Shown here: positions 2,854 to 24,127 of the stretch, piece after piece | How positions within the stretch are numbered: position 1 is the stretch's first letter | Layout: the number at the start of each line of letters is the position of its first letter | Virus record (IMG/VR): IMGVR_UViG_3300005512_000299 | Coordinates: 1 to 25,314 of that record | From: a virus | Lineage: Duplodnaviria > Caudoviricetes | Direction: 5' to 3' (one strand) | Length of the DNA: 25,314 nucleotides | Translations under genes and position numbers: made by a program | Notes under the pieces: generated by a model | The model's database searches: none | Seen by the model: the letters and a program-made list of their open reading frames with translations, nothing else | What the model was told of the DNA's origin: nothing

Positions 2854-4270
2854 CTACACCCACGAGCAGAAGACAACGATAGACGGTTGGAGCCCACACC
2901 CGGGCCCCCAGACCGAGGTGTTAAGCAGACCAGAGAGGGAGGTATTGTATGGTGGTGCCAGAGGTGGGGGAAAGACTGAGGCCGGTATGGCGTGGCTTCT
3001 GGAGCCTGAGTATACGGAAAACCCAGCGTATGAGGCCGTTGTGGTACGCAAGAATACAAAGGACCTGTCAGAGTGGGTGCGGCGGTTTAGCAGATTTAGC
3101 GGAATCTCTCCGACAGGCTCAATGGCACCACAGTTCAAGTTCCCCGCGGGTGGAACGATTGAAACAGGACACTTGAAGGATAAGGATGCTTATGAGAAGT
3201 ACCAAGGGCAAGAAAAGCACAAAATCCTCATTGAAGAACTCACCCAAATCCCCGAAGAGAAGCAATATCTGGAATTGATAAGTTGCGCCCGCTGCCCGAG
3301 TACCCCAGACCTGTCGAGTCAAGTCATGTGCTCTGCGAACCCTGGTGGCAGGGGCCATGCTTGGGTTAAGCGTCGGTTTGTAGACACTTGCCTGAACAAA
3401 CCATTCAAGAGCCCAAAGGGAAACTGGCGCGTGTTTATCCCATCCACGGTTGATGACAACCCCACCCTGCTACACGATAAGGAATACATTGCATACCTCG
3501 ATGAGCTGCCGGAACCGCTCAGAAGCGCTTGGAGGTTTGGTAAGTGGGATATCTTTGTGGGGCAGTATTTCCTGAACTTCGGCGACCATTTAAAGGAAGA
3601 GCCATTCGAGATACAGCCTCACAGGTGCAAGGGGAGGATATATGGAAGTATGGATTACGGTTCCGGGTTTTCTGGGATTAGCTCTTTTGGTTATTGGTTG
3701 GTTGATGACGGTGGCATTCCACATCGACTCTTTACTAAGAGAATGCAGGGACTTACCGCCTCCGAGCAAGCTGATGAACTTTTTGATACTATTCAATCTT
3801 TTCACTATACTAGCGGGTATATGCCTCATATTGTATGGTATGATAATTCTATGGATAACAAGGCTCGTTTAGAGCAGGAGCGCGACTTTGCCCCGATTGA
3901 CTATTTTAAGAAGAAGTTTCCCAAAAATGTGCAGTGGGTAACGGCCAACAAGAGCAGGGTGCAGGGTTGGCAGATAATGATGGATTTCTTCGGGAGAGGG
4001 GTAGACGGGCTACCCAAGATGTATTATTGGGAGGGGTGGAACGGTTCTTTTGAGGATACTATTCCTTTGCTTGTGAGTGACGACAACCACCCAGAGGACG
4101 TATTAAAATGCGACATAGACCACGAAGCGGACGAGTGCCGTTATGGCCTGGTTGGGATAAAGGGGTTGCGGAGCCAAGCGGTAAGAAGCCCCGAAGACGG
4201 CGCAATGAAGATAAGGAATGCAATATGGAGAGCAAAGAAGAAGTTGGGCTCACCTGTGACGGGTTGGTAA
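2846..4270 (+). CDS. terL: terminase large subunit
   Basis: Walker A LYGGARGGGKT, Walker B-like ILIEELTQ, coupling motif SANPGGRGH, and RNase H-like nuclease motifs GSMDYG and DHEADECRY. GTG start. Confidence 0.93.
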   Translation: MFDYTHEQKTTIDGWSPHPGPQTEVLSRPEREVLYGGARGGGKTEAGMAWLLEPEYTENPAYEAVVVRKNTKDLSEWVRRFSRFSGISPTGSMAPQFKFPAGGTIETGHLKDKDAYEKYQGQEKHKILIEELTQIPEEKQYLELISCARCPSTPDLSSQVMCSANPGGRGHAWVKRRFVDTCLNKPFKSPKGNWRVFIPSTVDDNPTLLHDKEYIAYLDELPEPLRSAWRFGKWDIFVGQYFLNFGDHLKEEPFEIQPHRCKGRIYGSMDYGSGFSGISSFGYWLVDDGGIPHRLFTKRMQGLTASEQADELFDTIQSFHYTSGYMPHIVWYDNSMDNKARLEQERDFAPIDYFKKKFPKNVQWVTANKSRVQGWQIMMDFFGRGVDGLPKMYYWEGWNGSFEDTIPLLVSDDNHPEDVLKCDIDHEADECRYGLVGIKGLRSQAVRSPEDGAMKIRNAIWRAKKKLGSPVTGW

Positions 4271-5982: not shown

Positions 5983-6627
5983 ATGAAAAAGGTACTTTTA
6001 ACCGTTCTTTTGGCTGCCCTTGCGGTTTCAGCAGGCAGAGCCCCCTCCCGCCCAGCGTACAACACGCGGCATTTTTACGATACGCTGTATGTTGCATCGA
6101 CAGCAGATACATTCTCCCAGGTCTTTTGGCAGGATGCGGGAATGGAAAAAACCCTGCTGATTGAGATGAATGATACATCGGTTGCTGGGTTTGATTCCGA
6201 TTCGTGTGCTTTCAAGCTGGAGCTTTATCAGGCATGGCAGACACAACCAGAGTCAACAATTATACTTCTACCCTCACGTGCAAACCCTGATTCTACCGGC
6301 TGGCCGTATTCAAGTGATTTTGTTCTGTTTGACTCCCTCGATATTGCTGATATGGACACCGTTTCAACTTACCGCAGGGTTGCAATTCCATCAACAGACC
6401 TTTCAGGGGATACCACTGGCTACTATTACAAGACGGGTATTGATACCCTCATAAGCGTTTCAGCACAGATTGCGGCATTTGCTTATGTTCCGATAGCCCC
6501 CGATGCTTCTGCTGGTGTGGCGGTAAAGATTACCGGGAAAGCTTCAAACAAGAAGGGTGCCGGTTCAAGGATTATACTTAAGTGGTTTCAGGTCAAAGGT
6601 CAACCCGTTGATGTGGTTGGGAAATAG
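5983..6627 (+). CDS. secreted protein with Sec signal peptide, D-(S/T)-rich
   Basis: MKKVLLTVLLAALAVSA|G and an AGGAG RBS. It has 10 D-S/T dipeptides, 6 of which match D[ST][AILVMT]. Confidence 0.8.
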   Translation: MKKVLLTVLLAALAVSAGRAPSRPAYNTRHFYDTLYVASTADTFSQVFWQDAGMEKTLLIEMNDTSVAGFDSDSCAFKLELYQAWQTQPESTIILLPSRANPDSTGWPYSSDFVLFDSLDIADMDTVSTYRRVAIPSTDLSGDTTGYYYKTGIDTLISVSAQIAAFAYVPIAPDASAGVAVKITGKASNKKGAGSRIILKWFQVKGQPVDVVGK

Positions 6628-6628
6628 C

Positions 6629-7231
6629 ATGAAAAACCTGCTTTTGATAGTTCTGGTGCTTATCGGGTCTGCTTGGGCCCGTTCTCCGTATTCTCCGAGG
6701 GGTGGCAGGGCATACGGGCAAGACCAGTACACCAACGCCATGATAACGATTGATTATGAGCACCACGAGATACACGAGGGGGCGCATTTCTTTATCTGTG
6801 ACACCATAACGCTTGGTTCAGGTGATTCTGTTATGTTTGCCATGAAAACCGATGCAGGGCCGAAGGAAGTTCACCTTGCGTGGGACATTTTTGGCTCTAA
6901 AGGCATTTTTCTTGAGATATTTGAGGGTGCCGGTATAACTTGGGACGGGGCAAACGCAACGATAAGGAACAACGACCGCAACAGCGCCACGGTTTCAACG
7001 GTTGATTCTTTACAGGCTGACCCGACGGTTGTGTCATTGGGAACCAGGATACAGGTTGACATTGGCGGTACGGCCACAAACCCTGCAAGCGGGATACCTG
7101 GGGTTGCATCAAGAAACCGTGAGTTGATACTAAAAAAGGGCACTGTTTACCTGTTCACAATAACTTCACAGGCTGCGAGCAACATTATTGGGTATTGTGG
7201 GCAGTGGTACGAACCGACACCAAAAGATTAA
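6629..7231 (+). CDS. secreted beta-rich protein with Sec signal peptide (putative virion structural protein)
   Basis: The likely start is ATG 6629: MKNLLLIVLVLIGSAWA|R. It has an HHEIHEG motif, alternating beta-strand pattern, and sequons DTI, DSV and DSL. Confidence 0.78.
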   Translation: MKNLLLIVLVLIGSAWARSPYSPRGGRAYGQDQYTNAMITIDYEHHEIHEGAHFFICDTITLGSGDSVMFAMKTDAGPKEVHLAWDIFGSKGIFLEIFEGAGITWDGANATIRNNDRNSATVSTVDSLQADPTVVSLGTRIQVDIGGTATNPASGIPGVASRNRELILKKGTVYLFTITSQAASNIIGYCGQWYEPTPKD

Positions 7232-7232
7232 T

Positions 7233-9104
7233 ATGGCAAGATTCAGCGTAGATAAACCAAACGAAGTATCAAAAGCCTATTCTTGGGTAGAAGAGAGGAA
7301 TCAGGGCTTTTACACCTCTTCGCTGTACTCTGAGAAGTGGACAGGGTTTGAGCGTAGGCAGGACGCTTACTATCAAAGACACCGGTCTGATGCCCCTGCT
7401 TGGCGGTCTAAGCTACATTTAGCCACGTTCTTTAATGCCTGTAAGGCTCTAGACGCTCAGTTTAAGGCTTCACATGCTTCTGACCCGTTCATCTTTGTAT
7501 CGCCCGATAATGACAGTACATTCAACCCTGTGAGTGTTGAAAAGGCGGCATTGGCGCAGGCTGACCTGAATCACGACCTTTCGATAGGGAATTTCAGGGA
7601 AAAACTTGATTATATGTATTGGTATGTTGAGATGTGCGGGACTGCTGTGGGTAGGGAGTACATACGGACAGAGCAGGAAAGAAAAATCAACAAAAAGGTT
7701 GTTACAGACCAGTTTGGTGTGCCGAGGCCGATGGATGAAGAGGTTGTATCAAGGAAAGAATACACCGTTACTGACATAATCCACCCGCTGAACTTTGCCC
7801 ACGAGATACACAAGCCTAATTTCAGGGGTTCGGAGTGGGGCGGAACACGGCTCCCTCTTCCGGTGCATGAGATTTACAAAATGGTTGGGCATAAATCGTA
7901 TTATCAGCCCGGAGTAAAGAAGCTGATTAAACTCCTTGAGTCTGGTAAATACACGGGTGTTTCAAGCGGTCAGACAGAGATATATTTGAGGAACCAGAAT
8001 GAGGGTTCCAATCTCTTTGATAATACAGTTGTGGTTTATGACTATTCGGGGCCGCTTAATTACCGCGGGAACGAGGATGACCACGCTTGGTATTACTGTT
8101 TGTATGTTCCAGCGGTTAATGAGTTCTTGAGGATATCAGAGACGCCGTTCAAGCAGCACCCTTTCTGGAAGATGCAGACTTACCCTGACCCTGACGGGCC
8201 GTTTGGTGTTGGGCCTGCTGATATGGTTCTTCCGATTAACTGGCTGGAAAACTCAACGGTTAATCAGTCGATAGACTACGCTAATATAGCTTTAAAGTAC
8301 ATGTATGAAGTACAGCCGGATAATATCACAGTTGGGTTTGATCAGTTAATCGAGGGGCTGCCGCTGGGGATGATTCCGCTTGAGCCTGACATTCAGCCGG
8401 GGTCTGGTGCAATACGCCCTGTTCAGCAGAACACAGCAAATCAGGCTATTTTTCGTGACCAGATGAGCATGATAGAGAAGTATAAGCAGGAGATGGGGCC
8501 GACTTCTCTTTTGAGGGGTAAGGGGTCAAATCAACTCCCGACAGACACCGCAACGGGGATAAGCCTTTTGGCACAAAGGGAAGATGACCAGGTTGCAATG
8601 CTTCAGGCTGGTTGTGACGCTGGGATTCAGCACGGGCTACAGATTAAATTGCAGAACACCGCTGAGTTCTTCAGGGAAGAAAGATTTTCGGAGATAGACC
8701 AAGACGGCAATCAGCGCAGGGTGAGATATTACCCTTATGAATACGGCGGGTTGGACTATTCTTTGAAGGTTAAACGGGAAGTTGGAGACGTTGAAGCCGG
8801 AAAGAACATGAGCTTTTTTAAACTGCTGACATCTCTTGATAATATGGCAATAGCAAGAGGGACACCGATGCCTTTTGATGCGTTGGTTGATGTTAGTAAG
8901 AAGGTTGGCAGGGCATTAGGAATTGATAACGTAGATGAGACTTTTTCAAAGATACAAGAAGCGATGGGCCCGAATATGCCGCCACAAATAGGCGCTCCGG
9001 GGCAACCCCCGGCAATGGCCCCACAGACCCCCGCACCTGTACCGGGAGCACCGGCAGGGGCACTTCCAGAGGGCAACTTAAATGCATTGGCGCAGGCGGT
9101 TTAA
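7233..9104 (+). CDS. portal protein (P22-like/podoviral)
   Basis: 623 aa from ATG 7233, between terminase and scaffold/capsid. It has PDGPFGVGPAD and TDTATGISLL segments and a Pro/Gln/Ala-rich C-terminal tail typical of such portals. Confidence 0.8.
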   Translation: MARFSVDKPNEVSKAYSWVEERNQGFYTSSLYSEKWTGFERRQDAYYQRHRSDAPAWRSKLHLATFFNACKALDAQFKASHASDPFIFVSPDNDSTFNPVSVEKAALAQADLNHDLSIGNFREKLDYMYWYVEMCGTAVGREYIRTEQERKINKKVVTDQFGVPRPMDEEVVSRKEYTVTDIIHPLNFAHEIHKPNFRGSEWGGTRLPLPVHEIYKMVGHKSYYQPGVKKLIKLLESGKYTGVSSGQTEIYLRNQNEGSNLFDNTVVVYDYSGPLNYRGNEDDHAWYYCLYVPAVNEFLRISETPFKQHPFWKMQTYPDPDGPFGVGPADMVLPINWLENSTVNQSIDYANIALKYMYEVQPDNITVGFDQLIEGLPLGMIPLEPDIQPGSGAIRPVQQNTANQAIFRDQMSMIEKYKQEMGPTSLLRGKGSNQLPTDTATGISLLAQREDDQVAMLQAGCDAGIQHGLQIKLQNTAEFFREERFSEIDQDGNQRRVRYYPYEYGGLDYSLKVKREVGDVEAGKNMSFFKLLTSLDNMAIARGTPMPFDALVDVSKKVGRALGIDNVDETFSKIQEAMGPNMPPQIGAPGQPPAMAPQTPAPVPGAPAGALPEGNLNALAQAV

Positions 9105-9384
9105 ATACGTTCCGATTATTAACAGGGACGGCAGAACAGACGCGGAGAAGTGGCAAGACCCCGAATATTTAAGATTGGTCGGGGGGCTGGCAAACAACCA
9201 ACCATTTGTTAGTGAGGTTGTGGGTGCTCTTTTAAAGCTCAGAGACGAGGCAGACAAGGCGAAAAACCCTGACGTGCTCTTGGGTATGCAGGCTGGAATA
9301 ATGGCCCTTAAAGCGCTATTAACGGCCCCCCAGAGGGCAAAAGACCGTCTGGAGGTAATGAGTGTTAGCCGCGCGATTAACTAG
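9082..9384 (+). CDS. hypothetical protein following portal
   Basis: 100 aa helical ORF overlapping the portal end. Confidence 0.6.
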   Translation: MHWRRRFKYVPIINRDGRTDAEKWQDPEYLRLVGGLANNQPFVSEVVGALLKLRDEADKAKNPDVLLGMQAGIMALKALLTAPQRAKDRLEVMSVSRAIN

Positions 9385-9739
9385 GCTTTACAGCCTGTTT
9401 TTCCCTGTTAAAAGGGGGCTTGGGGCGGCAAAGACACGTATTGAGAAGTGCTGTCGGGTTGCTGATTGGCTAAGTGGTGGGATGAAGTTTCATTTCAACT
9501 ACTTTTTCTTTCACGACATTGGGGAATATGACTTTGCTGCTGGGGTTGAGTTGGAAAAATGGGAAAGAAAGACCGTTTTTCATATGAAACACCACCCAGA
9601 CAGGAAATTAGAGCTTGTTTTAAGGAAGATTGTGTTTGAATCTCTTGAATGGGCGGTGTTGAAGCGTGCGGATTTGGGCATTAATTCAAAAATTGATATT
9701 TATTACGACAAAAACCTTGACTTTTCGGTGAAAAGATGA
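9362..9739 (+). CDS. hypothetical protein
   Basis: 125 aa ORF with ATGA overlap into the Com-like gene; start uncertain. Confidence 0.55.
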   Translation: MLAARLTRLYSLFFPVKRGLGAAKTRIEKCCRVADWLSGGMKFHFNYFFFHDIGEYDFAAGVELEKWERKTVFHMKHHPDRKLELVLRKIVFESLEWAVLKRADLGINSKIDIYYDKNLDFSVKR

Positions 9740-9924
9740 AAGATATACGTTGCCCGATATGTAATGCTCTTTGGTTCAGGGCAGATGGAAAGTTTAAGGT
9801 GAATATTCGTTGCCGGAAGTGTGGGCATGATTTCACAAAAAAGTTTGACACGGGTGGGAGTGTAATAAAGGGAGTGCAAACGGGGAGTGTAAAAGATGCC
9901 CAGTTGATGCACATTAGAGTGTAA
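9736..9924 (+). CDS. Mu Com-like zinc-ribbon regulator
   Basis: MKDIRCPICNALWFRADGKFKVNIRCRKCG fits the IRCxxCxxLL...IxCxxC pattern of the Com family. It lies before the head genes. Confidence 0.7.
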   Translation: MKDIRCPICNALWFRADGKFKVNIRCRKCGHDFTKKFDTGGSVIKGVQTGSVKDAQLMHIRV

Positions 9925-10022
9925 AATATAGAACAATACCCGTCAAGCCTCTCCACGATGCTCAAAGCGATGGGTTAGTATACATAAGAGCCCCTTGAGG
10001 GCCCCGTTAATAGAGTCCTTAG

Positions 10023-10077
10023 AGACCCCCTTGGTGGATTGGTATTCTCCTTTCCTACCTTGGGGGTCTTTTTATTT
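10023..10077 (+). terminator. intrinsic terminator- or attenuator-like hairpin upstream of scaffold
   Basis: AGACCCCC (10023-10030) pairs with GGGGGTCT (10062-10069), with an inner GGTGGA/TCCTACC stem and a following TTTTATTT tract. Confidence 0.6.
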
Positions 10078-10094
10078 GAGACCTGGAGGAACAA

Positions 10095-11138
10095 ATGAGC
10101 AGTTTAGCAGAACCAGTTGCCGCAGCAGAACCCACAGAGGCCGTGGACGTTGTAAGTGACATACCGGCTGAAGAGCCCACAACGGAGCCTGTCGAAAGTT
10201 CGTCGGAGCCTGAAGAGGTAAACCAAAGCGAAACAGACACGGGTAAACCGCAGGAGGAAGCAGAAGGTGTGCCGGGAGAGGGTAAACCGGAAGCGGAGCC
10301 CGAAAAAGCCCCGGAAGTTGATGCAGAAATAGCCAAGTGGCTGAAGGCAAAAAACATTGATTCCAAGCGGTATCTTGAAGACCCGCTTGTAAGGTCGATG
10401 GCTGACAGCTACAGAAACTCGGAAGCCTTTGCAATGTCACAGGCTAACAAGTTGAACGAGCTAAAGAAAGCAGAGACGATCCAAGCAGCGGAGACAGTAC
10501 ACCAGGCAACACCAACCGAGCCGGAGCAGTTGACACCCACTCAGGAGCTTGAGAAGCGCTACAGCGATGCGGCGTTGAACATGGCCCACCTTATGGGGTT
10601 TCAGAGTGCGGAAGAGGCGGCACAGGCTTTGGTCAATGCAGGGCTACCGAATGCGTTTGCGAGTCTTCAGAACGGGTATAATGCCCAATATCGGGAGGCG
10701 TTACGGCAGGAGCTTTTGGGCTCTGTACAGGCAGAAAAGGAAGCACAGGCCAAGAAAGAGGCCCAGCAGAAACTTGAAACGGAGTATGGGAGTGTCAAAA
10801 GGGCGGCGCTGGACAACCTGAAGTCATACCGTGACAAAAATAAGGCGTTTGATGTTGCCTTTCAGAAGTCCGGCGCGGCAAAGGTTATGTCAGAGCTTGC
10901 TAAGACATTCAAGGCCCCGGTTGAGTATCTGTATGCACAAAAGCAATGGGTTGATTTTATGGCAAAAGCGTCCGAAGCAATCACAAAGGTATCCGACCCA
11001 AGTTTTGGTTCAAAGAAGGACTTTGAGAAAAGCCTGAAGGAATCAAAAAAGGGAGAGATGCCCGGAAGTCAGTCGCTTCCTGATGACCACGACGCACCAA
11101 TTTTTAAAAACATAGGCAGAGGTACTACACTTAAATAA
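10095..11138 (+). CDS. capsid scaffolding protein
   Basis: Acidic E/P-rich disordered N-terminus, coiled-coil middle, GGAGG RBS, directly upstream of the capsid gene. Confidence 0.75.
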   Translation: MSSLAEPVAAAEPTEAVDVVSDIPAEEPTTEPVESSSEPEEVNQSETDTGKPQEEAEGVPGEGKPEAEPEKAPEVDAEIAKWLKAKNIDSKRYLEDPLVRSMADSYRNSEAFAMSQANKLNELKKAETIQAAETVHQATPTEPEQLTPTQELEKRYSDAALNMAHLMGFQSAEEAAQALVNAGLPNAFASLQNGYNAQYREALRQELLGSVQAEKEAQAKKEAQQKLETEYGSVKRAALDNLKSYRDKNKAFDVAFQKSGAAKVMSELAKTFKAPVEYLYAQKQWVDFMAKASEAITKVSDPSFGSKKDFEKSLKESKKGEMPGSQSLPDDHDAPIFKNIGRGTTLK

Positions 11139-11149
11139 GGGGTTGAATC

Positions 11150-12376
11150 ATGGCAATTACAAGCGCATCAAAGAGCTATGCCAACGCCAATTCGACTGAA
11201 GAGAACGTGAAGAAAGATGTATCTTCCGTCCTTTGGCACGTTGGCGAACCGACCTCCTATCCGCTTCACACTCTTCTTGGTGGAAAACTGTACATTCAGG
11301 GACAGTCCAAACCTCAGGAAGTCGCGGGTAAGGTCAAGAAAGAAACCACAAAACAGCCGGAATACAAGGTCATCGAAAAAGACCCTCTGGCCCGTACCGT
11401 TACGACAAACGGTGCAGTTGCAAGCACTTCCACCACCACGGTGACTCTTGACGCCAACGCAAATCTGCGTGTTGGTGACATGATTAAAAACCGCGAAAGT
11501 GGCGAAGTGTGTTATGTCAGTGCCGTTGATTCTGGTGGTGCTGCTATTACCGTGAGGAGAAATCTCGGCTCGACCAGTTTTAAGGTTGCAGATAATTCGA
11601 CATGGTACATTATGGGTTGCGCGTTCGCAGAAGGTACTGCAAAAGCCTCACAGAAGGCCCAGCTTGCCGCCCCTCGGACACGTTATCTCCAAATTTTCAA
11701 ACGGACTTTCGGTGTTACCGGAACTCTGGATGAATCAAAGTTGGAAACCGAAGACATTGATAGCTGGACTGAAGAAATGACTCAGGCCGCCGTCAATCAC
11801 CGTCTTGACATCGAAAATAGCTGGTGGTTCAATCCCAACGCTGATTCGACCACGGACGCCTCTTCAAACACGGTTTACATTTCACGCGGTATTCTGAACG
11901 AAATCGGCTCGACTTACACGACCAATTACGAAGCCTCGATTGATGAGGATTTCTTTTTTGGTGAGTTTGCCGAAAACGCTTTTGAGTACGGCCCACGGCG
12001 GAAGCAGCTTTTTGTTGACGCTGAGATGATGACCGTGATCGGTTCTTTTGGCCGGACGAAACTCCAGACCAAGAGCACCGACACCAAGTTTGGCTTCAAA
12101 ATGCAGGAAATCGAAACTGGCCACGGCATGTTCGAGATGGTCATGTGCGGCACGTTTGACAAGCACCTTCCGAATGCCCAGAAGGGTATCGCGGTTGTGC
12201 TTGATGTTGAGCGCGTTTGCTACAAAAACCTCCCCAATCGTGACTCGAAGATGGAGATGGATATTCAGACTCCGGGAACCGATGCACGGGAAGGCCAGTT
12301 TGTCACGGAGTGCGGTTTGAGCCTTCGGTCTCTGCCTCACCACCACATTCTCAAAAAGTCTTCACTGACCATCTAA
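11150..12376 (+). CDS. major capsid protein (HK97 fold, SU10/DUF5309-like)
   Basis: 408 aa after the scaffold. It has AFAEG...RYLQIFKRTFGVTGT, HRLDIE, RGIL and C-terminal EGQFVTECGL...HHIL segments typical of this capsid family. Confidence 0.85.
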   Translation: MAITSASKSYANANSTEENVKKDVSSVLWHVGEPTSYPLHTLLGGKLYIQGQSKPQEVAGKVKKETTKQPEYKVIEKDPLARTVTTNGAVASTSTTTVTLDANANLRVGDMIKNRESGEVCYVSAVDSGGAAITVRRNLGSTSFKVADNSTWYIMGCAFAEGTAKASQKAQLAAPRTRYLQIFKRTFGVTGTLDESKLETEDIDSWTEEMTQAAVNHRLDIENSWWFNPNADSTTDASSNTVYISRGILNEIGSTYTTNYEASIDEDFFFGEFAENAFEYGPRRKQLFVDAEMMTVIGSFGRTKLQTKSTDTKFGFKMQEIETGHGMFEMVMCGTFDKHLPNAQKGIAVVLDVERVCYKNLPNRDSKMEMDIQTPGTDAREGQFVTECGLSLRSLPHHHILKKSSLTI

Positions 12377-12391
12377 CACAAGGAGCATAAG

Positions 12392-12910
12392 ATGAAAGCA
12401 GTAAAAATTCTCAGTGCGCTTCTGGTTGTGGCTGGTCTGACTCAGGCGGCAGTAACTGTTGGAAGTGCTGGTAACAACACACGCGGCGTCACGGCGGCAA
12501 ATGTTCGGATTATCGAACTGACCGACGCTGACACCTCGGATGCTGGTGACACTATCAGTGCTGATGCGGTTTCTATTTATGGCCCCTATAAGGTGGCTGA
12601 CGAATACACCGCAGCGCAGTATAAGTCTTTCTCTGTTTATGCACAGGGTGGGCTGATTGCTTCCGGTGACTCCATCGAGATTAGCTATCAGTTGATTTCT
12701 GGAACAAGTCTTGCGGATACAACCGCAACTTGGACGGTTATTGACACGGTTGCGACAGGTGGAAAAGCCTTGGCAAATGTGGACATTTCGGCAAAACCCG
12801 CACGGTCTATCATATTCCGTATTCTGAATATTGACAGTACCCGTGTTGAGATTACCGATTTTATCCGCGTATGTTTTCTGAAGTCAGAAACCTACAACAA
12901 GAATGACTAA
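12392..12910 (+). CDS. secreted protein with Sec signal peptide at the capsid decoration-gene position
   Basis: MKAVKILSALLVVAGLTQA|A and an AAGGAG RBS, located between the capsid gene and a hairpin. Sequons DTI, DSI, DTT, DTV and DST. Confidence 0.8.
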   Translation: MKAVKILSALLVVAGLTQAAVTVGSAGNNTRGVTAANVRIIELTDADTSDAGDTISADAVSIYGPYKVADEYTAAQYKSFSVYAQGGLIASGDSIEISYQLISGTSLADTTATWTVIDTVATGGKALANVDISAKPARSIIFRILNIDSTRVEITDFIRVCFLKSETYNKND

Positions 12911-12940
12911 GAGGAAGGGGGCTTCGGCCCCCCTCCCTTT
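12911..12940 (+). terminator. GC-rich cUUCGg hairpin, probable terminator of the capsid transcript
   Basis: GGGGGC-TTCG-GCCCCC with extended flanking pairing and only a short TTT tail. Confidence 0.65.
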
Positions 12941-12951
12941 GGAGGTATAAG

Positions 12952-13266
12952 ATGCCCAAGAAAAGAGTAAAAGAGGTTAAAAAGCCCACCACTGTCTCTG
13001 GAACTGCGAAGGGTGCACATTCTGGTAATACTGTTGATGTTGATGAGTACAGAAACCAGATAGCCCGCGAGTATGCACCGGAGCCGGTAAAGCCCAAGAA
13101 TGAGGCAAAAACGTTTGTGGGTGCCGGAACGTACTTGCTGACCGCCCCAGACGGAGAAAAGCAGTCTTTTAAGTGGTCAACAGACAACAATTTTAAGGTT
13201 TTGGTTACTGACCCCAAGTGGATTGCAGTGCTTGAGGAAAAAGGCTTTAAAGAGCTGGAGAAATAA
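12952..13266 (+). CDS. hypothetical protein
   Basis: 104 aa with a GGAGG RBS. Confidence 0.7.
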   Translation: MPKKRVKEVKKPTTVSGTAKGAHSGNTVDVDEYRNQIAREYAPEPVKPKNEAKTFVGAGTYLLTAPDGEKQSFKWSTDNNFKVLVTDPKWIAVLEEKGFKELEK

Positions 13267-13898
13267 TGGCGCTTTCTACCACGATAATTAAGAATAGAAT
13301 GGGTCGGGATTCTGCCCTTTTGCTGTTACCTGCACAGGGTGACGATGAGAAGAATGATATCATTGACGATGCCCTTGCTGAGTTTGTTTCTTTTACAGAC
13401 CAGCCGATACTAAGTGCCAACCTGTCTGTAACGGCAAGCGTTGAAGTCTATTCTATACCGGCTACTATACGCAAGGTGGCCTCTATTCGTGATGCAGACA
13501 CAAACACCGTTGTTTATTCAATTGACCGTGAGAGGGGTGAGATAGTGCTTCAGAGCGCCCCTGGTGCCGCCTATACGTTTGTTGTGTACGGAACCCCAGC
13601 AGATCCACAGACCAACAGGGACACGGTTATTGCGGCTATAAGGCCGGATGATATATCGTGTTTCTTTGCGTATATTCGGTGGTCTGCACATGAATGGGCT
13701 GGAGACCCTGCGGCTGATAAGTTTTACGTAAAGGCCCGGACACTTGGTAAACAGGTCAGAAGAAGGGGCAACAGGTCGGTTGATAATCTTTACAAGGTTT
13801 TTGAGCAGTTTGATGTAAAAGGCAGAAGGATTGGTGATTCTGGCAACGCTTCAGGCTTTGATGTTGACATTAACAACCAATATGAGTCTGATTTATGA
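13266..13898 (+). CDS. putative head-tail adaptor (tail tubular protein A-like)
   Basis: 210 aa, located between the capsid region and the nozzle-sized gene; helical N-terminus then YSIP...VASIRD beta segment. Called mainly by synteny. Confidence 0.55.
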   Translation: MALSTTIIKNRMGRDSALLLLPAQGDDEKNDIIDDALAEFVSFTDQPILSANLSVTASVEVYSIPATIRKVASIRDADTNTVVYSIDRERGEIVLQSAPGAAYTFVVYGTPADPQTNRDTVIAAIRPDDISCFFAYIRWSAHEWAGDPAADKFYVKARTLGKQVRRRGNRSVDNLYKVFEQFDVKGRRIGDSGNASGFDVDINNQYESDL

Positions 13899-15745
13899 GC
13901 AAAGGCGGGATGACAAAGCGTGTGTATTCAAAGTTTATGTCCGTTAATGGCGGCGTAGACCAATACCACGACCCTATTAAATTGGCTAATAATAAATGCC
14001 AATCAATGTCTAATTTGTTTATTGACGGGGGAGATGTCACGCTAATGCCCGGAAGAGAGCTTTGGGGGCCGGTGTTCAATGAGCCATTTAGGGGGGTTCA
14101 CGAGTACATTGACTCTGCTGGTGTCTCGAGGCTTTTGGTTGCAAGTGATGGAAATTTGTACGAGGTAGACTCAACGACAAAGACCAGCCGGGACACGGTA
14201 ACAGATGAGCGGCTGCACTTTCACACGTTAAGGGATAAGTGTTTTTACAATGGTTCAACCACCCAAAGAAAACTGGACGGAACTACTAGCTCTGCTGTGG
14301 GCCTTGATGGGCCTGATACTGCTCCAACTCTTGCGGCAGGCGCAGCAGGGGTATTGACCGGAAGTTATGCGTATAAGGTCACTTTTGTTATTGAGAGCGG
14401 TGGTATTAGGGTGTATGAAAGCGACCCAAGCGATTCTTCCAACTCGGTGACACTTTCAAGCGACAAGGGCTCTTTGACAGATGTTCCTGTAAGCACGGAT
14501 GCGAGGGTGAATGCTCGATATATTTACCGGACGTTTGTGGGTGGTGCAAAGTGGTACTATGCCGGGAAAATCTCTGACAACACGACAACGACATACACCG
14601 ACAACCTTGCAGATGCTTCTTTGGGTGATGAGGTAGAAGACACCCACGGTGTACCGACTGCGGCTGAGTTCTCAGAGGGTGCAAACGAAAGGCTTTTCTG
14701 GCTCGATGATGATAAACTGTACTACTCTGAGGTTGCAAGAACTGATGCCTATTTGGAGTATTCAAAGATACTTGCTGGTGTGTCTGTAAGGTTTTTGACT
14801 CTTCCGAACAACGGTAAGGGTAAGGGGTTAAAGAGGCTTTATAACTCAGAGACCGGAAGAGATGATTTGTACGTGTTCGGGGAAGAGTCTATCAACATTC
14901 TTCCGCAGGGAGACCCAAACTTCCAGCTCCAGACCGTCAGAAGGAATGTTGGGCTAAAGCAACAGGACACGATTGTTGAATGGAACCAGAGTCTTGTGTT
15001 TCTGACAAACAAAGAGAGTGTTGGGCTGGTATCTGGCGGGAAATACGTAGACATTGCAGAAAGGTCTATACCTGAGACGTTAAAGGCGGCGTTTAATCAG
15101 GGAGAATACTCGGCAACGCTTTTGAGAGACAATTATTATGCTTTAAGTATACAAAACAATGCCGGAAAGCTATATGGAAATCAAACTTGGCTTTGTGACC
15201 TGAGAACCGCAAGAGAGGTGAGAAACAACCAGGCTGATGCAACGTGGTTTGCATGGGATGTGGATGCTCAGTATTTCATTGAAAGAGAAAACGGGGATAT
15301 ACTTGGATTTGACAACAATGCACGGCAGATATACAGGTATAGGTTTGATTTAACCAAGTTTGCTAATCAGGACGGTTCTAAGAGCAATATTTCATGGTCA
15401 ATGCGAACTAAAGACCATTTTGGTGACTCTTTGTATGTTCGGAAACAGGTTCACAATGTTTCGATTAAAGGGAAGTTTCAGAGAACTTTTTATGTGACCC
15501 CATACGCTGGAACTGGAAATGCGCAGAGCAATGTCGAATATAACCCGATTAAAACTGCATTTGTTGCAGGTACTAGTGTCATGGGTACACCGACAACGGA
15601 ATTTAAAGTATCGACAGAAGGGCAGTTCCCGGCGTCAACGGTTGGTAATACATTCTCGTTTAAGTTCTTTGGGTCTAACGAGGACGCATTTTTTACTTTT
15701 ACGGGCTATCAATTCATCTACATGGCATTTATGAGGGGATTATGA
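13895..15745 (+). CDS. putative tail nozzle / DNA stabilisation protein (tail tubular B or P22 gp10-like)
   Basis: 616 aa beta-propeller-like pattern with N-terminal NGGVD, plus an inserted Ig/FN3-like segment (APTLAAG..YAYKVTFV..ESDPS..RYIYRT..TYTDN). Confidence 0.65.
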   Translation: MSKGGMTKRVYSKFMSVNGGVDQYHDPIKLANNKCQSMSNLFIDGGDVTLMPGRELWGPVFNEPFRGVHEYIDSAGVSRLLVASDGNLYEVDSTTKTSRDTVTDERLHFHTLRDKCFYNGSTTQRKLDGTTSSAVGLDGPDTAPTLAAGAAGVLTGSYAYKVTFVIESGGIRVYESDPSDSSNSVTLSSDKGSLTDVPVSTDARVNARYIYRTFVGGAKWYYAGKISDNTTTTYTDNLADASLGDEVEDTHGVPTAAEFSEGANERLFWLDDDKLYYSEVARTDAYLEYSKILAGVSVRFLTLPNNGKGKGLKRLYNSETGRDDLYVFGEESINILPQGDPNFQLQTVRRNVGLKQQDTIVEWNQSLVFLTNKESVGLVSGGKYVDIAERSIPETLKAAFNQGEYSATLLRDNYYALSIQNNAGKLYGNQTWLCDLRTAREVRNNQADATWFAWDVDAQYFIERENGDILGFDNNARQIYRYRFDLTKFANQDGSKSNISWSMRTKDHFGDSLYVRKQVHNVSIKGKFQRTFYVTPYAGTGNAQSNVEYNPIKTAFVAGTSVMGTPTTEFKVSTEGQFPASTVGNTFSFKFFGSNEDAFFTFTGYQFIYMAFMRGL

Positions 15746-17280
15746 GAAGTCTTTTAATTAGTCTAATGCTTGCGGCTTCTGTTTTGGGTGCCGGTGGTGA
15801 CACGCTTGTCTTTGACTCAACGTACATCAATTTTGCAGACGGGGATACGTTTTTTGTTGACCAGAACTACAAACCCCCACATGACTCGGTACAGGCTATT
15901 ATTAATGGCCGGTTGGGTGATGTGAACCTTGCCACGGATGCTGAGATAGACGCTTCCAAGATTGACACCACAAGCATTTTAACCGTGCAGAAGGCCGCAA
16001 TAGACACTATAACTCGGTGTGATTCTGCCAAAATAGACACGGTTGAGCTTGTAAAAATTAAGGGCAACCCGGACGTTGACAGCCTTGCCGGGAATATTGT
16101 TATTGATAGTCTTTCGGGAAACCCCACAATTGACTCTGCATCTATTGGCTATTGTGACATCGGGGGTGATTTTCTTTTTGCCGGTGGGACGCAGGATTAT
16201 TTGGTGACTTACGAGGGGGCAAAAAGCCTTGCCATCCAAAGCCAAACAATAAACACAGACTTTCAGATTGAATTTTTTCCGTATGGGCCGTCGGGGACAG
16301 CAGACGGCACTGACGACAACAGGCTGATATTTTATGGCGTGGGTTCACCTTCCGACATCACAGACAGAGAGCGCTTGACGGTATCATACGAGAGCGGAAA
16401 TACAGATTTTGAGATTTACACCGAAGCAGCCGGCACTGGCACACTCAGGCCACTTGTACTATACACCGAAGGCAATGCCAACCAATTACACCTTGCAACC
16501 GATGGAAGTGTTGGAATAGGAACAGCAACAACGAACGGATATCCGCTTCGCGTTGCCTCTGGAAATATTGTTCTTGACAACACGCGCGGGGTGCTTGCGT
16601 ATAATGCAGCTGGAAACGCCGTGAATGGCGGTTTTCAGTATACCGGAACCGACGACCTTCAACTGTGGGCTGGTGGTCAGTATAGGGTAACTGTTGACAA
16701 GTTGGGGTTTGTTGGAATAAACGAGCCATCACCATCCAAAATGCTAGACGTTGACGGCTCGATTAACGTTACAGACACCATTTTTGCTGGAACCTACGAT
16801 TTTAGCGGCTCAGATATTACTTTGGACACGCTTGTAGCCTCAAGGGTTCGGGCTGATTCAATTATAGGCGTTGATTACATTGACTCTGTTTCTTTTGGTG
16901 ATGAGCCTTTGAAGGTTTATGATGAGGGTTCATTTACTGGAACGCTTCAGGGTTGTGCAACAGCCCCAACGATTTCTATTAAATACACAATAATAGGCAA
17001 CATTGCAACTTTGTATTATCCGAGCACAATAGCAGCTTCTGACTCTGCTGGGTTCGCTATTACAGGTCTACCTGCTGCACTACAGCCAACGGGGGCGGCT
17101 ATATACAATGCGGTAATAGCTTATGATAACGGTGGTCAGGTTGGGGCGTTTGCCCTGCTTTCAAACGGTTCTGGCTCAATACGCTTTTTGATTGGCTGTG
17201 ACTCGCCAAACGTTTCGGGTTGGACGACAAGCGGAAACAAGGGCGTTGACGGTGGCGCGATAACATACGGGTTAGATTAA
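15742..17280 (+). CDS. tail fibre-like protein carrying an N-terminal Sec signal peptide
   Basis: MRSLLISLMLAASVLG|A. Fibre-type motifs GSVGIGT and GFVGINEPSPSKMLDVDG, and C-terminal YDEGSFTGTL...YTIIGNIATL. 15 D[ST][AILVMT] sites. Confidence 0.7.
   Translation: MRSLLISLMLAASVLGAGGDTLVFDSTYINFADGDTFFVDQNYKPPHDSVQAIINGRLGDVNLATDAEIDASKIDTTSILTVQKAAIDTITRCDSAKIDTVELVKIKGNPDVDSLAGNIVIDSLSGNPTIDSASIGYCDIGGDFLFAGGTQDYLVTYEGAKSLAIQSQTINTDFQIEFFPYGPSGTADGTDDNRLIFYGVGSPSDITDRERLTVSYESGNTDFEIYTEAAGTGTLRPLVLYTEGNANQLHLATDGSVGIGTATTNGYPLRVASGNIVLDNTRGVLAYNAAGNAVNGGFQYTGTDDLQLWAGGQYRVTVDKLGFVGINEPSPSKMLDVDGSINVTDTIFAGTYDFSGSDITLDTLVASRVRADSIIGVDYIDSVSFGDEPLKVYDEGSFTGTLQGCATAPTISIKYTIIGNIATLYYPSTIAASDSAGFAITGLPAALQPTGAAIYNAVIAYDNGGQVGAFALLSNGSGSIRFLIGCDSPNVSGWTTSGNKGVDGGAITYGLD
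16060..16140 (+). repeat. three tandem 9-aa repeats in the tail fibre
   Basis: KGNPDVDSL / AGNIVIDSL / SGNPTIDSA, each ending in a D-S-(L/A) sequon. Confidence 0.7.
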
Positions 17281-17552
17281 TGATAAACCATGCAACAGAA
17301 GTAACAAGCGACGTCCGGGCTGATGGAGATATCGGCGGGGTTGTTGTTTCTCTTACGACCGGAAGCGATACGGTAGCGTCTCAGGACAGGCACAGATTTA
17401 CGATAGAGCATGGATTAAAAAGGGTTCCAGTTGGTGTTCAGGTGATTTATTCAGACAATTACGTAAAAATGAAAACAATAAGCCGTGATATAAACCAAGT
17501 AATAGTTCAATTTGATACGGCAGAAGTTGAAGTCAATCTAAGGATTTGGTAA
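17280..17552 (+). CDS. small beta-rich tail-associated protein
   Basis: 90 aa; the FTIEHGLKRVP motif (HxLGxxP-like) is common in small phage tail proteins. Confidence 0.6.
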   Translation: MINHATEVTSDVRADGDIGGVVVSLTTGSDTVASQDRHRFTIEHGLKRVPVGVQVIYSDNYVKMKTISRDINQVIVQFDTAEVEVNLRIW

Positions 17553-19592
17553 ATGGCAACTAATACGATTTTTGAAACGCCGACATTTCGTGAAGACGAC
17601 GAAGAACTGTTCCCCGGTCAGGATGTTGCTGCACCCACTAAACCAGCAACTCAGCCGACAACTCTTCCGGGGCAGACTGCACCAAGCGGAACTGATGCAA
17701 TAAACACGCTTGAGGCAAATGTTCCAACGGGTCTTCCGGGGGCGGCTCCGTTTGACATCAACCAGAGCGAGCTTTTAAAGCAGTCTAGGAATGTCGCTTC
17801 TCAGCAGCTTTCAGGTAATGTTCCGGGGCTTACTGAATCCGAAGCCATGCAGAGAGAGGCGTTTAAGACCGGCCAGCAGCAACAGGAAGCCGCACAAAGA
17901 GAGGCGCTTCTTGGGGCTGGTTTGGCTGATTCAGGGCAGAGGTTGGGCTTTGAAGTCCAGACCCCAGCGGAGCAGGAAAGACAGCGCCAGCAGTTTGAAC
18001 GTGGGCTTTCTGCCAATCGTGGACAGCTTCAGATGCAACAGCAACAGGCCGGACAGCAGGCGGCGCTTGGTCTTGGCGGGATTGGAATTGAAGAGTCAAA
18101 AATATCACAATCAGACCGTCAGTTCTTTGCTTCTCTTGGGCAGGACGCAGACCAGTTCTACGCCGACCTTGGTTTTAGAGACAAAGAGCTTATACAGCGC
18201 GGCGACCTAACGCTTACCGAGCTCGCACAGAATAAAGAGCTTTTCTTTGCAGACCTTGGGTTTCAGGAGAGAGCACTTGCACAAGACGCGTCACAGTTTA
18301 CGTCTCGGATGGAGTTTGACCGCTGGGCAGAAGAAAACAAGTTGTCCGAAGCAGAGAAAAATCGCCTTTGGAATGCCACGCAGAACGAGCGGAAACTTGC
18401 AAATGCTGTTGAGCTTGCCCAGATGCAGGTGGACTTTGAAACGTGGAAGCAGGGTCGGGTTGAGGAGTTGACCGCAAGGGGGTGGGACCAAGAAGCCGCC
18501 CTTCAGAAGTCACAGCAAGAACACGACTCTCTTATGGCGAATCTTGACCGGGAACTACAGAGGGAGGTCGAAGACGGAAGGTTGACCCTTGCCGAGAAAG
18601 AACTTGCACAGCAGGCCACACAATTTACTGACCAGCTATCCTTTGAGGAGTGGGCTGTAAGCCAAAACATTGCGGCTGACGGCGCGGCAAGGGCTTGGCA
18701 GGCTTCACAGAATGCGGCCGACAGGTCTCAGCAGATAACGCTTGCAAACCTTGATTATCAACTTGGCCTTCAGGGCTTAAGTCTTCAGGAAACTCAAATA
18801 GCCAATCAGGCTGCACAGTTTGCCGACCAACTTGGATGGGAGCAGGAAGCCTTTAGGCTTGGGCTGGATGAAAAAGACGCCCAGAGACTTTGGGAAGAAG
18901 GCCAGAACGCACTTACTAGGGCGCATGAAGCAAGCATGGAGGCGCTTGATAGGGAACTTCAGAAACAGGGTCTTAATCTCACTGCTATATTGGGCTCGCT
19001 TGATTTTCTACCAGAAGAACAGGTTGGACAGGTTATCGAGCAACTTGCACTTGATGCGGGTATGACTTGGACAGACGAAAACGGAGAAACACAGCAAGGG
19101 CTTCAGCCACCTTCTCGCAACGCACAGCGGACAGCTGTTGCCCAGGATATTTCTTCAAACATTATAAACGGTGGTATTATATCTGAAGGACAACTTCAAG
19201 TCCTACTTGGATATATTAGCGAGGACGCTGTTGATGCAGGGATAAACCTCACCCACTCTTCGAACGGTATTGAAGGCATGGGTTCAACTCTCAGATACAC
19301 GACAACCGGAGAAAACAGGTGGGTTGTCAATGACTCTGCGAAAGCCTGGGCAGAACAAAACACAGGGCAACTTTATGCCGCTAGCAATGGAGATGTTTAT
19401 CAGGTTATGGGGGTTGCTGATGATAGTGATGAAAGAGGCGATGCGCAGGGCATTTTATTCAGAAATGTTGTTACCGGAGAGACGGTTGAATATTATAAAC
19501 CAAACTCAGGCAGCAACTTGAGCACTAAGTATTTTCCTGAGGCGGAAGGTTCCCCGGAACCAATTACCCTAAATGATGCAAGAATGGTTTAA
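17553..19592 (+). CDS. putative internal virion / ejection protein with helical repeats
   Basis: 679 aa Q/A/E-rich helical protein with internal repeats, at the podoviral ejection-gene position. Confidence 0.6.
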   Translation: MATNTIFETPTFREDDEELFPGQDVAAPTKPATQPTTLPGQTAPSGTDAINTLEANVPTGLPGAAPFDINQSELLKQSRNVASQQLSGNVPGLTESEAMQREAFKTGQQQQEAAQREALLGAGLADSGQRLGFEVQTPAEQERQRQQFERGLSANRGQLQMQQQQAGQQAALGLGGIGIEESKISQSDRQFFASLGQDADQFYADLGFRDKELIQRGDLTLTELAQNKELFFADLGFQERALAQDASQFTSRMEFDRWAEENKLSEAEKNRLWNATQNERKLANAVELAQMQVDFETWKQGRVEELTARGWDQEAALQKSQQEHDSLMANLDRELQREVEDGRLTLAEKELAQQATQFTDQLSFEEWAVSQNIAADGAARAWQASQNAADRSQQITLANLDYQLGLQGLSLQETQIANQAAQFADQLGWEQEAFRLGLDEKDAQRLWEEGQNALTRAHEASMEALDRELQKQGLNLTAILGSLDFLPEEQVGQVIEQLALDAGMTWTDENGETQQGLQPPSRNAQRTAVAQDISSNIINGGIISEGQLQVLLGYISEDAVDAGINLTHSSNGIEGMGSTLRYTTTGENRWVVNDSAKAWAEQNTGQLYAASNGDVYQVMGVADDSDERGDAQGILFRNVVTGETVEYYKPNSGSNLSTKYFPEAEGSPEPITLNDARMV

Positions 19593-19611
19593 ATAACCGT
19601 AGGAGAAAAAA

Positions 19612-19857
19612 ATGTCATCAGCTAGTGGTGTAAGTTCAATTATAAGCGCTGTGACTGATTCTGCAGACACAACATCTGATAATTTTTCAGACCTTGTTAC
19701 GTTCGCAGAGGAAAAGCGGCAATTTGATAAAACCTACGGGTTGCAACAGGATATGTTTGACCTTGAAAAAATGCTAAAACTTGCCGAGGAGCGGCGCAAG
19801 GTTGCAGAGGAAACCCGCATGCGAAACATACGCAATTATCTTGCAAGGATAAAATAA
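19612..19857 (+). CDS. small putative internal virion protein
   Basis: 81 aa, AGGAG RBS, S/A-rich N-terminus followed by a coiled coil. Confidence 0.6.
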   Translation: MSSASGVSSIISAVTDSADTTSDNFSDLVTFAEEKRQFDKTYGLQQDMFDLEKMLKLAEERRKVAEETRMRNIRNYLARIK

Positions 19858-21044: not shown

Positions 21045-21047
21045 AAA

Positions 21048-24125: not shown

Positions 24126-24127
24126 CG

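What the first reader, a model, noticed from the sequence alone, without database searches (positions are those of the whole stretch)
5983..17280. Candidate system: phage exports virion-surface proteins through Sec for host O-glycosylation
Seen: four genes in the morphogenesis module (5983-6627, 6629-7231, 12392-12910, 15742-17280) begin with classical SPase I signal peptides. Tailed phages assemble in the cytoplasm, so this is unexpected. The same four proteins are rich in D-[ST]-[AILVMT]: hand counts are 6/214, 3/200, 5/172 and 15/512 aa, or 29 in 1098 aa. The signal-less TerL (2/474), portal (2/623) and capsid (1/408) give 5 in 1505 aa. Established: this tripeptide is the sequon of the general periplasmic O-glycosylation system of Bacteroidota, which acts on exported proteins. 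Inference: the phage routes decoration and fibre proteins to the periplasm, where the host glycosylates them, and they join the particle at or after lysis, giving a glycan-coated virion. No phage glycosyltransferase is visible in this window. Caveat: the signal-less but D/S/T-rich nozzle has 6/616 and the 90 aa tail protein has 2, so composition explains part of the signal.
Basis: partly seen in the sequence, partly recalled or inferred. Interest (0 to 1): 0.92.

Follow-up and report, generated by a model that had tools for sequence, protein, structure and literature searches.

The report
Phage exports sugar-tagged outer virion parts
An uncultured short-tailed phage and its relatives put a bacterial export-signal-like leader and about four times the chance number of a host sugar-attachment motif on four proteins of the particle-building gene block, so its likely capsid decorations and tail fibre are probably secreted, sugar-coated and added outside the cytoplasm, where tailed phages are not known to be built.

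Summary
Observation confirmed. Four morphogenesis-module genes have signal-peptide-like N-termini and 29 D-[ST]-[AILVMT] motifs against 7.0 expected; 12 signal-less module proteins have 19 against 14.2. The pattern is family-wide: SP1 has a leader in 11 of 11 loci, SP3 in 15 of 16, SP4 in 11 of 12, with 3.6-6.1-fold motif excess and a third-residue spectrum like Bacteroidota glycoproteomes. Signal-bearing distant homologues show no excess (0.99), so composition does not explain it. SP1 and SP3 fold as jelly-rolls; SP4 has tail-fibre architecture. Two corrections: strong Shine-Dalgarno use argues against a Bacteroidia/Flavobacteriia host (Fibrobacterota-like fits; host unidentified), and 2 of 11 loci carry an O-antigen-ligase/O-OTase-like gene right after SP1, so glycosylation need not be host-only. 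Export, glycosylation and virion binding are all inferred; SignalP was unavailable. Cultured phage phi18:3 has MS-detected signal-bearing proteins but no motif excess. The scan found this phenomenon before on other DNA; my paper searches found no description of it.

The parts
5983..6627 (+). SP1, 214 aa: signal-peptide-like leader (about residues 1-17/18), predicted single jelly-roll; 6 motifs; likely capsid- or portal-vertex decoration
   Evidence: pLDDT 72; GOLD domains Z 9.0; phage 7-7-1 capsid chain 9hz8_G Z 8.7, rmsd 4.4, 128 aligned; BPP-1 3j4u_H Z 7.8; present with leader in 11 of 11 loci
6629..7231 (+). SP2, 200 aa: leader (about 1-17), phrog_5335 family; 3 motifs; occupant of a variable slot before the portal
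   Evidence: homologues in cultured phages MEP301 (between TerL and portal) and Vibrio 172P1 have no leader and 1 motif each; relatives hold other leader-bearing fibre-like genes or a Wzy_C-like gene here
12392..12910 (+). SP3, 172 aa: leader (about 1-19/20), predicted single jelly-roll; 5 motifs; directly after the capsid gene; likely cement/decoration protein
   Evidence: pLDDT 81.5; XepA Z 10.9, rmsd 2.6, 108 aligned; KHP40 cement Z 7.7; Bbp16-containing cluster 0.87, a lead only
15742..17280 (+). SP4, 512 aa: leader 1-16, conserved anchor (about 17-80), swapped middle modules, shared C-terminal domain; 15 motifs; directly after the nozzle; likely the tail fibre
   Evidence: motifs 10 in residues 17-134, 0 in 135-340, 5 in 341-512
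2846..4270 (+). terminase large subunit (signal-less control)
7233..9104 (+). SU10-type portal (signal-less control)
   Evidence: PF23899 E 3.9e-10
10095..11138 (+). likely scaffolding protein (by position and composition; no family hit)
   Evidence: 0 motifs
11150..12376 (+). SU10-type major capsid protein (signal-less control)
   Evidence: PF17236 E 8.8e-27
13266..13898 (+). likely tail adaptor (signal-less)
   Evidence: PF24175 E 0.003, under cut-off
13895..15745 (+). likely tail nozzle (signal-less; 6 motifs vs 2.6)
   Evidence: phrog_8040 E 1.8e-11; PDB 8jov_A E 9.5e-5
17280..22586 (+). 90-aa tail protein and four likely ejection proteins (signal-less; role inferred from position)
22583..24385 (+). 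likely lysis block: NlpC/P60 protein, DUF1353, small holin-like ORF, OmpA-domain lipoprotein, small membrane protein
   Evidence: lipobox in the OmpA protein; holin label by eye

Best explanation
SP1-SP4 are likely outward-facing virion proteins (two jelly-roll decorations, a variable-slot protein and the tail fibre) that are probably exported by Sec, cleaved, likely O-glycosylated at D-[ST]-hydrophobic sites in the periplasm, and would dock on the cytoplasm-built head and tail at or just after lysis. Shown in sequence: leaders, motif excess, fixed gene slots, family conservation. Predicted: jelly-roll folds. Inferred: cleavage by signal peptidase I; glycosylation by the host's D-S/T system, in a host that uses Shine-Dalgarno sites (Fibrobacterota-like rather than Bacteroidia/Flavobacteriia); storage in the periplasm, since they carry no lipobox or membrane anchor; docking once the inner membrane fails; a glycan coat that stabilises or masks the particle. 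In some relatives a phage Wzy_C-like enzyme may transfer or extend the glycan.
For: Leader kept while its letters drift: SP1 11 of 11 loci, SP3 15 of 16, SP4 11 of 12 with the twelfth holding another leader-bearing gene (capsid identity between 11 loci 35-78%). In 27 of 29 SP4 rows a small residue (A/G/C/S) stands at -1 of the conserved x-G-G-D-T start. Motif excess: SP1 109/17.9 (17 of 17 above expectation), SP3 58/16.3 (19 of 19), SP4 305/69.0 (28 of 28), slot-2 54/12.5 (n 7); beyond the SP4 anchor, in non-homologous modules, 233/51.7 (28 of 28). DS and DT rank 1 and 2 of 374 dipeptides; E[ST]h, N[ST]h and [ST]Dh are not enriched; third residue L142 I136 V88 T80 A70 S39 (555 of 652, 85%), the order given for Bacteroidota glycoproteomes, about 90% (PMC12871550 section 6). 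Control: of 150 best SP4 hits, 30 with a leader but another N-terminus give 122/123.7, 98 without give 378/438. In the complete relative G001 none of 44 ORFs scanned hits a tail-fibre family and its fibre-like ORFs all begin with leaders. Precedent: phi18:3 gp085-087 begin with leaders and are annotated structural from MS/MS.
Against: No experiment; no SignalP. Host not identified. Fold matches are generic jelly-rolls: the top rows are XepA, GOLD and ephrin-receptor domains, and cement proteins score Z 7.3-8.7, near the 7-8 background. Signal-less classes are mildly above chance: adaptor 31/16.5, portal 23/13.9, nozzle 37/26.3, capsid 30/21.5 (homologues are not independent). phi18:3 gp085-087 have 1 motif each against 3.7, 3.2, 2.9 although the host is a Flavobacteriaceae member, and distant phage loci L055 and L060 have leader-bearing proteins without excess (6/7.8, 8/8.3): export and glycosylation are not always coupled. 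Many SP1/SP3 motifs sit in shared columns (7 and 3 columns in half or more of rows), so they may be structural. SP3 leaders are no less conserved than the mature part (0.33 vs 0.30). L020 has no SP3 and L002 has signal-less genes in the slot.
Confidence: 0.66

Rival explanations
1. The four proteins are exported and glycosylated but stay with the cell envelope or medium: superinfection exclusion, receptor masking or decoys. The Wzy_C-like gene of some relatives would remodel the host surface, as in serotype-converting phages.
For: Leaders are the normal mark of envelope proteins; SP3's best fold match is XepA, titled an exported protein; lectin/CBM jelly-rolls score alike; no virion proteome exists.
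Against: Fixed slots after capsid and nozzle genes across 35-78% capsid identity; SP4 has a conserved anchor with swapped distal modules; no signal-less fibre hit and no integrase hit among 44 ORFs of complete G001; the SP2 homologue of MEP301 sits signal-less between TerL and portal.
Confidence: 0.14
2. The proteins are exported and join the virion, but the D-S/T excess is structural (turn caps, metal binding, fibre repeats) and no sugar is attached; export serves folding, disulfides or keeping lectin-like parts away from the cytoplasm.
For: phi18:3 gp085-087 and loci L055, L060 show export without excess; conserved motif columns in SP1 and SP3; mild excess in signal-less proteins; host unknown.
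Against: The excess spans unrelated folds, is strict for D (E[ST]h 0.3-0.9, N[ST]h 0.6-1.1), follows the glycoproteome order at the third residue, and is absent from 128 proteins that share SP4's other modules; 63 of 96 motif columns in the SP4 alignment are singletons.
Confidence: 0.11
3. The leaders are uncleaved anchors: the proteins stay in a membrane, and the particle leaves wrapped in or tethered to membrane, or matures on a membrane scaffold.
For: Cleavage is not shown; an OmpA-domain lipoprotein accompanies the late module in the window, G001 and L039.
Against: Leaders are short (mostly 15-19 residues) with a small residue at -1 in 27 of 29 SP4 rows, and conservation starts right after it; capsid and portal are standard SU10 type.
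Confidence: 0.07
4. Artefact: chance hydrophobic starts and D/S/T-rich composition.
For: Nozzle 6 vs 2.57; the leader call is heuristic and also flags some false ORFs.
Against: Shuffle p values, family-wide conservation and the controls.
Confidence: 0.02

Closest known systems
General D-(S/T)-hydrophobic O-glycosylation of Bacteroidota (PMC12871550; passages and section 6 read)
   Same: Same motif and third-residue order, strict D, confined to proteins with export signals.
   Different: The targets are phage proteins; the host probably uses Shine-Dalgarno sites and so is probably outside Bacteroidia/Flavobacteriia; no glycan shown. The review states that the OTase and the outer-glycan ligase remain undiscovered.
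Cellulophaga phage phi18:3 gp085-gp087 (GenBank KC821620, annotated 'structural protein ... MS/MS')
   Same: Tailed-phage proteins with leader-like N-termini found by MS in virion preparations.
   Different: No motif excess (1 each vs 2.9-3.7); three adjacent genes, not fixed slots beside capsid and nozzle; no homology tested positive; the source paper was not available.
Jelly-roll cement/decoration proteins (BPP-1 3j4u_H, KHP40 7dou, phage 7-7-1 9hz8_G) and T7/SU10-type tail fibres
   Same: Fold class and gene position for SP1/SP3; anchor plus swapped modules after the nozzle for SP4. That decorations can bind finished capsids is recalled (T4 Soc/Hoc, lambda gpD).
   Different: Known ones are made in the cytoplasm without leaders (recalled); fold scores do not single out cement proteins.
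Glycosylated mycobacteriophage virions (Freeman et al. 2023; seen only as a citation in PMC12582341 and in search listings)
   Same: A glycan-coated tailed virion.
   Different: There phage glycosyltransferases act on capsid/tail proteins, recalled as cytoplasmic and leader-free; here the inferred route is export plus periplasmic transfer.
WaaL / PglL (Wzy_C, PF04932) enzymes
   Same: Relatives L005 and L006 encode 9-10-helix proteins with an H-P-H-N motif in the large loop and a PF04932 match.
   Different: Inside a virion gene block; absent from the window; substrate unknown; no PDB sequence match.
Filamentous-phage coat proteins and archaeal pleolipovirus spikes (recalled, no call)
   Same: Virion proteins that use the host's secretion route; the archaeal spikes are glycosylated by the host.
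   Different: Those virions assemble at or bud from the membrane; this is an HK97-type tailed phage with a lysis block.

Membership tests
Sec/SPase I substrates | Basic n-region, hydrophobic h-region, small residues at -3/-1, no lipobox | tested here: met
   by heuristic and conservation, not SignalP; -1 small in 27 of 29 SP4 rows; -3 is L/A/I/V in 26 of 29
Sec/SPase I substrates | Export and cleavage in vivo | not testable with these tools
   needs N-terminal MS
Bacteroidota-type O-glycoproteins | D-(S/T)-(L/I/V/T/A/S/M) excess in non-cytoplasmic proteins, strict D | tested here: met
   reference order from PMC12871550
Bacteroidota-type O-glycoproteins | Host belongs to a lineage with this system | tested here: inconclusive
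   no named host; SD use argues against Bacteroidetes/Chlorobi and fits Fibrobacterota
Bacteroidota-type O-glycoproteins | Glycan attached at the motif | not testable with these tools
   needs glycoproteomics
Jelly-roll capsid cement proteins (SP1, SP3) | Single jelly-roll fold | tested here: met
Jelly-roll capsid cement proteins (SP1, SP3) | Closest fold is a cement protein; binds the capsid | tested here: inconclusive
   cement rows Z 7.3-8.7, tied with or below generic jelly-rolls; binding to the capsid not tested
Podophage tail fibre (SP4) | Gene after the nozzle; conserved N-terminal anchor with variable distal modules | tested here: met
Podophage tail fibre (SP4) | Match to a named fibre family; trimer docked on adaptor/nozzle | tested here: inconclusive
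   no Pfam hit in 29 rows; one PDB match, 7qrj Zav_19, E 1e-4
SU10-like podophage module | SU10-type capsid, portal and adaptor in order | tested here: met
   PF17236, PF23899 over cut-off; PF24175 under cut-off; says nothing on genus or family rank
Wzy_C (WaaL/PglL) - relatives L005, L006 only | PF04932 domain, many membrane helices, His in the large loop | tested here: inconclusive
   L005 33.4 bits over the 31.7 cut-off, 29.2 bits; L006 E 3.8e-4, under cut-off; HPHN in both; topology and activity not tested

The most novel reading that the evidence does not exclude
A tailed phage family assembles its particle in two compartments: head, portal and tail machine in the cytoplasm, every outward-facing part (two decorations, head fibres, tail fibre) as periplasmic glycoproteins that coat the particle during lysis. 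Its host is a Fibrobacterota-like lineage, which would extend the D-S/T system beyond Bacteroidota, and the Wzy_C-like gene that some members carry beside the targets is a phage copy of the still unidentified OTase or outer-glycan ligase of that system.
Probability: 0.25. Interest if true: 0.93.

Novelty: categorically new. Interest (0 to 1): 0.8.

Why it matters
Tailed phages are held to be built wholly in the cytoplasm. A family that sends its decorations and its apparent only tail fibre through the host's secretion route would add an extra-cytoplasmic assembly step, tie maturation to lysis, and give the particle the host's own glycan, with effects on stability, host range and recognition. 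It would also mean that signal-peptide genes in phage late modules, usually filed as morons, can be virion parts. The Wzy_C-like neighbour in two relatives offers a testable candidate for enzymes that a 2025 review calls undiscovered (PMC12871550), and the motif excess in a Shine-Dalgarno-using phage points to the system outside Bacteroidota.

Tried and rejected
Complex prediction of SP4 anchor x3 with nozzle and adaptor gave no verdict (score 0.01, partner fold uncertain). No sequencing run was listed. Cultured-phage searches: SP4 no match, its anchor only E>=5, the Wzy_C-like protein no match in phages or plasmids, and only its two known copies in viral contigs. Foldseek on BFVD and PDB gave generic jelly-rolls. 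SP1 vs SP3 profiles: weak, 63% over 34 columns; paralogy not claimed. Promoter scan 28 vs 21+-5, terminators 16 vs 18: uninformative; TAnnTTTG counts had no control and were not used. In one search the L005 Wzy_C-like protein was wrongly binned with slot-2 proteins (57/13.4, n 8); recounted without it 54/12.5, n 7; it remains as 1 of 72 in the dipeptide and third-residue tallies. My ORF caller missed SP1 in L004 and mis-started it in L007 and L041. The SD motif set for the window included AGGGG, added after seeing the capsid gene's upstream. Duplicated loci were dropped (6; 7 of 30 distant loci). Paper searches that showed no description of exported or periplasm-glycosylated tailed-phage parts (listings only); 'signal peptide' does not occur in PMC10172136 or PMC8776804. 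The phi18:3 proteomics paper and Freeman 2023 were not held, so their text and supplements, which bear on the precedent, were not seen.


Full report
The window. It is a 25.3 kb virus record, linear and about 65% complete, holding a podophage late module: TerS, TerL, SU10-type portal (PF23899), a scaffold-like gene, SU10-type capsid (PF17236), adaptor, nozzle, likely ejection proteins and a lysis block with NlpC/P60 and an OmpA-domain lipoprotein. The closest cultured capsid is 28% identical.

The observation. Each starts with a basic residue and a hydrophobic core and has no lipobox or later membrane segment. Against shuffles the counts are 6 vs 1.37, 3 vs 0.76, 5 vs 1.29 and 15 vs 3.59 (p 0.0004, 0.036, 0.004, <=0.0002); pooled 29 vs 6.97, while 12 signal-less module proteins give 19 vs 14.16. 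The nozzle is mildly high (6 vs 2.57). SignalP was not available; the leader call is a heuristic backed by conservation.

The family. A capsid profile from 53 proteins fetched related loci (more); capsid identity among 11 of them is 35-78%. SP1 lies between TerL and portal with a leader in 11 of 11 loci that cover the interval. SP3 follows the capsid gene with a leader in 15 of 16; L020 lacks it, and L017 holds only its start. SP4 follows the nozzle in 11 of 12, and the twelfth (L041) has another leader-bearing gene there. The slot of SP2 is variable: five relatives' proteins share a short N-terminal anchor and differ distally, one ending in a weak BclA-like knob; L002 has signal-less genes there. 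In SP4 conservation begins at x-G-G-D-T, and the residue before it is A, G, C or S in 27 of 29 rows, as expected for signal peptidase I.

The motif is selected, not compositional. With database homologues added, mature SP1 gives 109 vs 17.9 (17 of 17 above expectation), SP3 58 vs 16.3 (19 of 19), SP4 305 vs 69.0 (28 of 28) and slot 2 54 vs 12.5 (n 7). DS and DT are the top two of 374 dipeptides in these proteins and rank 85 and 50 of 395 in 88 signal-less ones. E[ST]h, N[ST]h and the reversed motif are not enriched. The third residue runs L, I, V, T, A, S (555 of 652), the order reported for Bacteroidota glycoproteomes (PMC12871550, section 6 read). Beyond the SP4 anchor, where modules are swapped, the excess is still 233 vs 51.7. 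Of the 150 best hits to SP4, the 22 that share the anchor give 245 vs 53.8; 30 others with a leader give 122 vs 123.7 and 98 without give 378 vs 438. The window's own SP4 has no motif in residues 135-340, the module whose best hits (up to 57% identical) are signal-less proteins, which fits a recent swap. Against: adaptor (31/16.5), portal (23/13.9), nozzle and capsid (1.4-fold) are mildly high, and many SP1/SP3 motifs are shared columns.

Are they virion parts? SP3 (pLDDT 81.5) and SP1 (72) fold as single jelly-rolls. Matches include phage capsid accessory chains (9hz8_G Z 8.7; BPP-1 3j4u_H 7.8; KHP40 cement 7.7-7.8), but XepA (10.9), GOLD and ephrin-receptor domains score as well or better, so the fold is compatible, not diagnostic. 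SP4 has fibre architecture. SP2's homologues in two cultured proteobacterial phages have no leader and one motif each, and in MEP301 the gene lies between TerL and portal as here. In the complete relative G001, 44 ORFs of about 90 aa or more that I chose gave no tail-fibre, integrase or glycosyltransferase family hit, and its fibre-like ORFs (judged by eye) all begin with leaders. A cultured precedent for export exists: phi18:3 gp085-087 begin with leaders and are annotated structural from MS/MS (lead from earlier scan notes). They show no motif excess, so export does not imply glycosylation; of 23 distant phage loci, 17 have no leader-bearing protein of 120 aa or more on the strand read, two have several without excess and one (L059) has seven with 45 vs 13.2.

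The host. Not identified. SD-like motifs precede 16 of 26 window genes (3.0 at random) and 51 of 72 genes in relatives, against 2 of 18 in phi18:3. Bacteroidetes and Chlorobi lack SD while Fibrobacteres show it (PMC3155529, passages), and Fibrobacterota share the motif enrichment. A Fibrobacterota-like host is my inference; other SD-using FCB lineages are not excluded.

A candidate enzyme. In L005 and L006 the gene right after SP1 is a polytopic protein matching O-antigen ligase PF04932 (33.4 bits, over cut-off, and E 3.8e-4; 29.2 bits). The two are 28% identical (E 3e-34), carry H-P-H-N and 9-10 predicted helices; the L006 copy is split into two ORFs. It is present in 2 of 11 loci and absent from the window, G001 and G002. 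A distant phage, L048, has a leader-bearing gene followed by a weak Wzy_C match after its capsid-like gene. The review says the OTase and ligase of the D-S/T pathway remain undiscovered. The enzyme could equally act on LPS.

Mechanism. Shown: leaders, motif excess, slots, conservation. Predicted: folds. Inferred: Sec export and cleavage; glycosylation in the periplasm, mostly by the host; storage there; docking on finished particles when the inner membrane fails, before or after the outer membrane opens; a glycan coat. Confidence 0.66. Rivals: exported non-virion envelope proteins (0.14), virion parts without glycan (0.11), uncleaved anchors (0.07), artefact (0.02).

Novelty. Seven paper searches (listings only) showed no description of tailed-phage parts exported and glycosylated in the periplasm; the library lacks most subscription papers, and two key papers were not held. 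Earlier notes of this scan report the same pattern for fibres of Bacteroidota phages and exported fibre plus ligase pairs on other DNA; these are unchecked AI notes, not support, and none matched this family by sequence. What this case adds is jelly-roll decorations as well as the fibre in three fixed slots, controls that separate export from motif excess, and a probably non-Bacteroidia host. Verdict: real, categorically new if the inferred steps hold, interest 0.8.

Noticed in passing
L005:2549-4093; L006:4723-5856 and 5846-6178: O-antigen-ligase/O-OTase-like (Wzy_C) gene directly after SP1 in two relatives, HPHN motif; one ORF in L005, two in L006.
   Followed up: partly
L048:5440-6944: Distant phage with a leader-bearing 129-aa gene followed by a 372-aa Wzy_C-like gene just after its capsid-like gene.
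   Followed up: partly
L059:871-20815: Unrelated podophage with seven leader-bearing late proteins and 45 motifs vs 13.2; L055 and L060 have leader-bearing late proteins without excess.
   Followed up: partly
window 23640-24125; L023:1926-2444; L039:10909-11406: OmpA-domain (peptidoglycan-binding) lipoprotein conserved at the end of the late module; could be an unusual lysis or outer-membrane factor.
   Followed up: no
L023:3210-4721; L039:12167-12766: Further leader-bearing protein (503 aa in G001, tailspike-like by eye, no family hit) after the OmpA gene.
   Followed up: partly
L001:3732-4877; L010:2018-4108; L013:4664-6171: Slot-2 proteins share a short anchor after the leader and have swapped distal parts, like head fibres; L010:2741-4108 has 18 motifs vs 3.3.
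   Followed up: partly
window 11150-12376: The signal-less capsid family keeps a nearly invariant A-D-S-T-T-D stretch, a motif match that is probably structural.
   Followed up: no
window 16144-16761 (SP4 residues 135-340): Motif-free middle module, up to 57% identical to proteins of other lineages; 30 of 128 such distant hits carry leaders, so exported fibre-like proteins seem widespread without the motif.
   Followed up: partly
L008:12224-14595: The nozzle gene is interrupted by several unrelated ORFs, one resembling a glycosyltransferase by eye; insertion or chimeric contig.
   Followed up: no
L023:2446-3198: ORF with an N-terminal membrane segment and a response-regulator-like C-terminal part (by eye) next to the OmpA gene in G001.
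   Followed up: no
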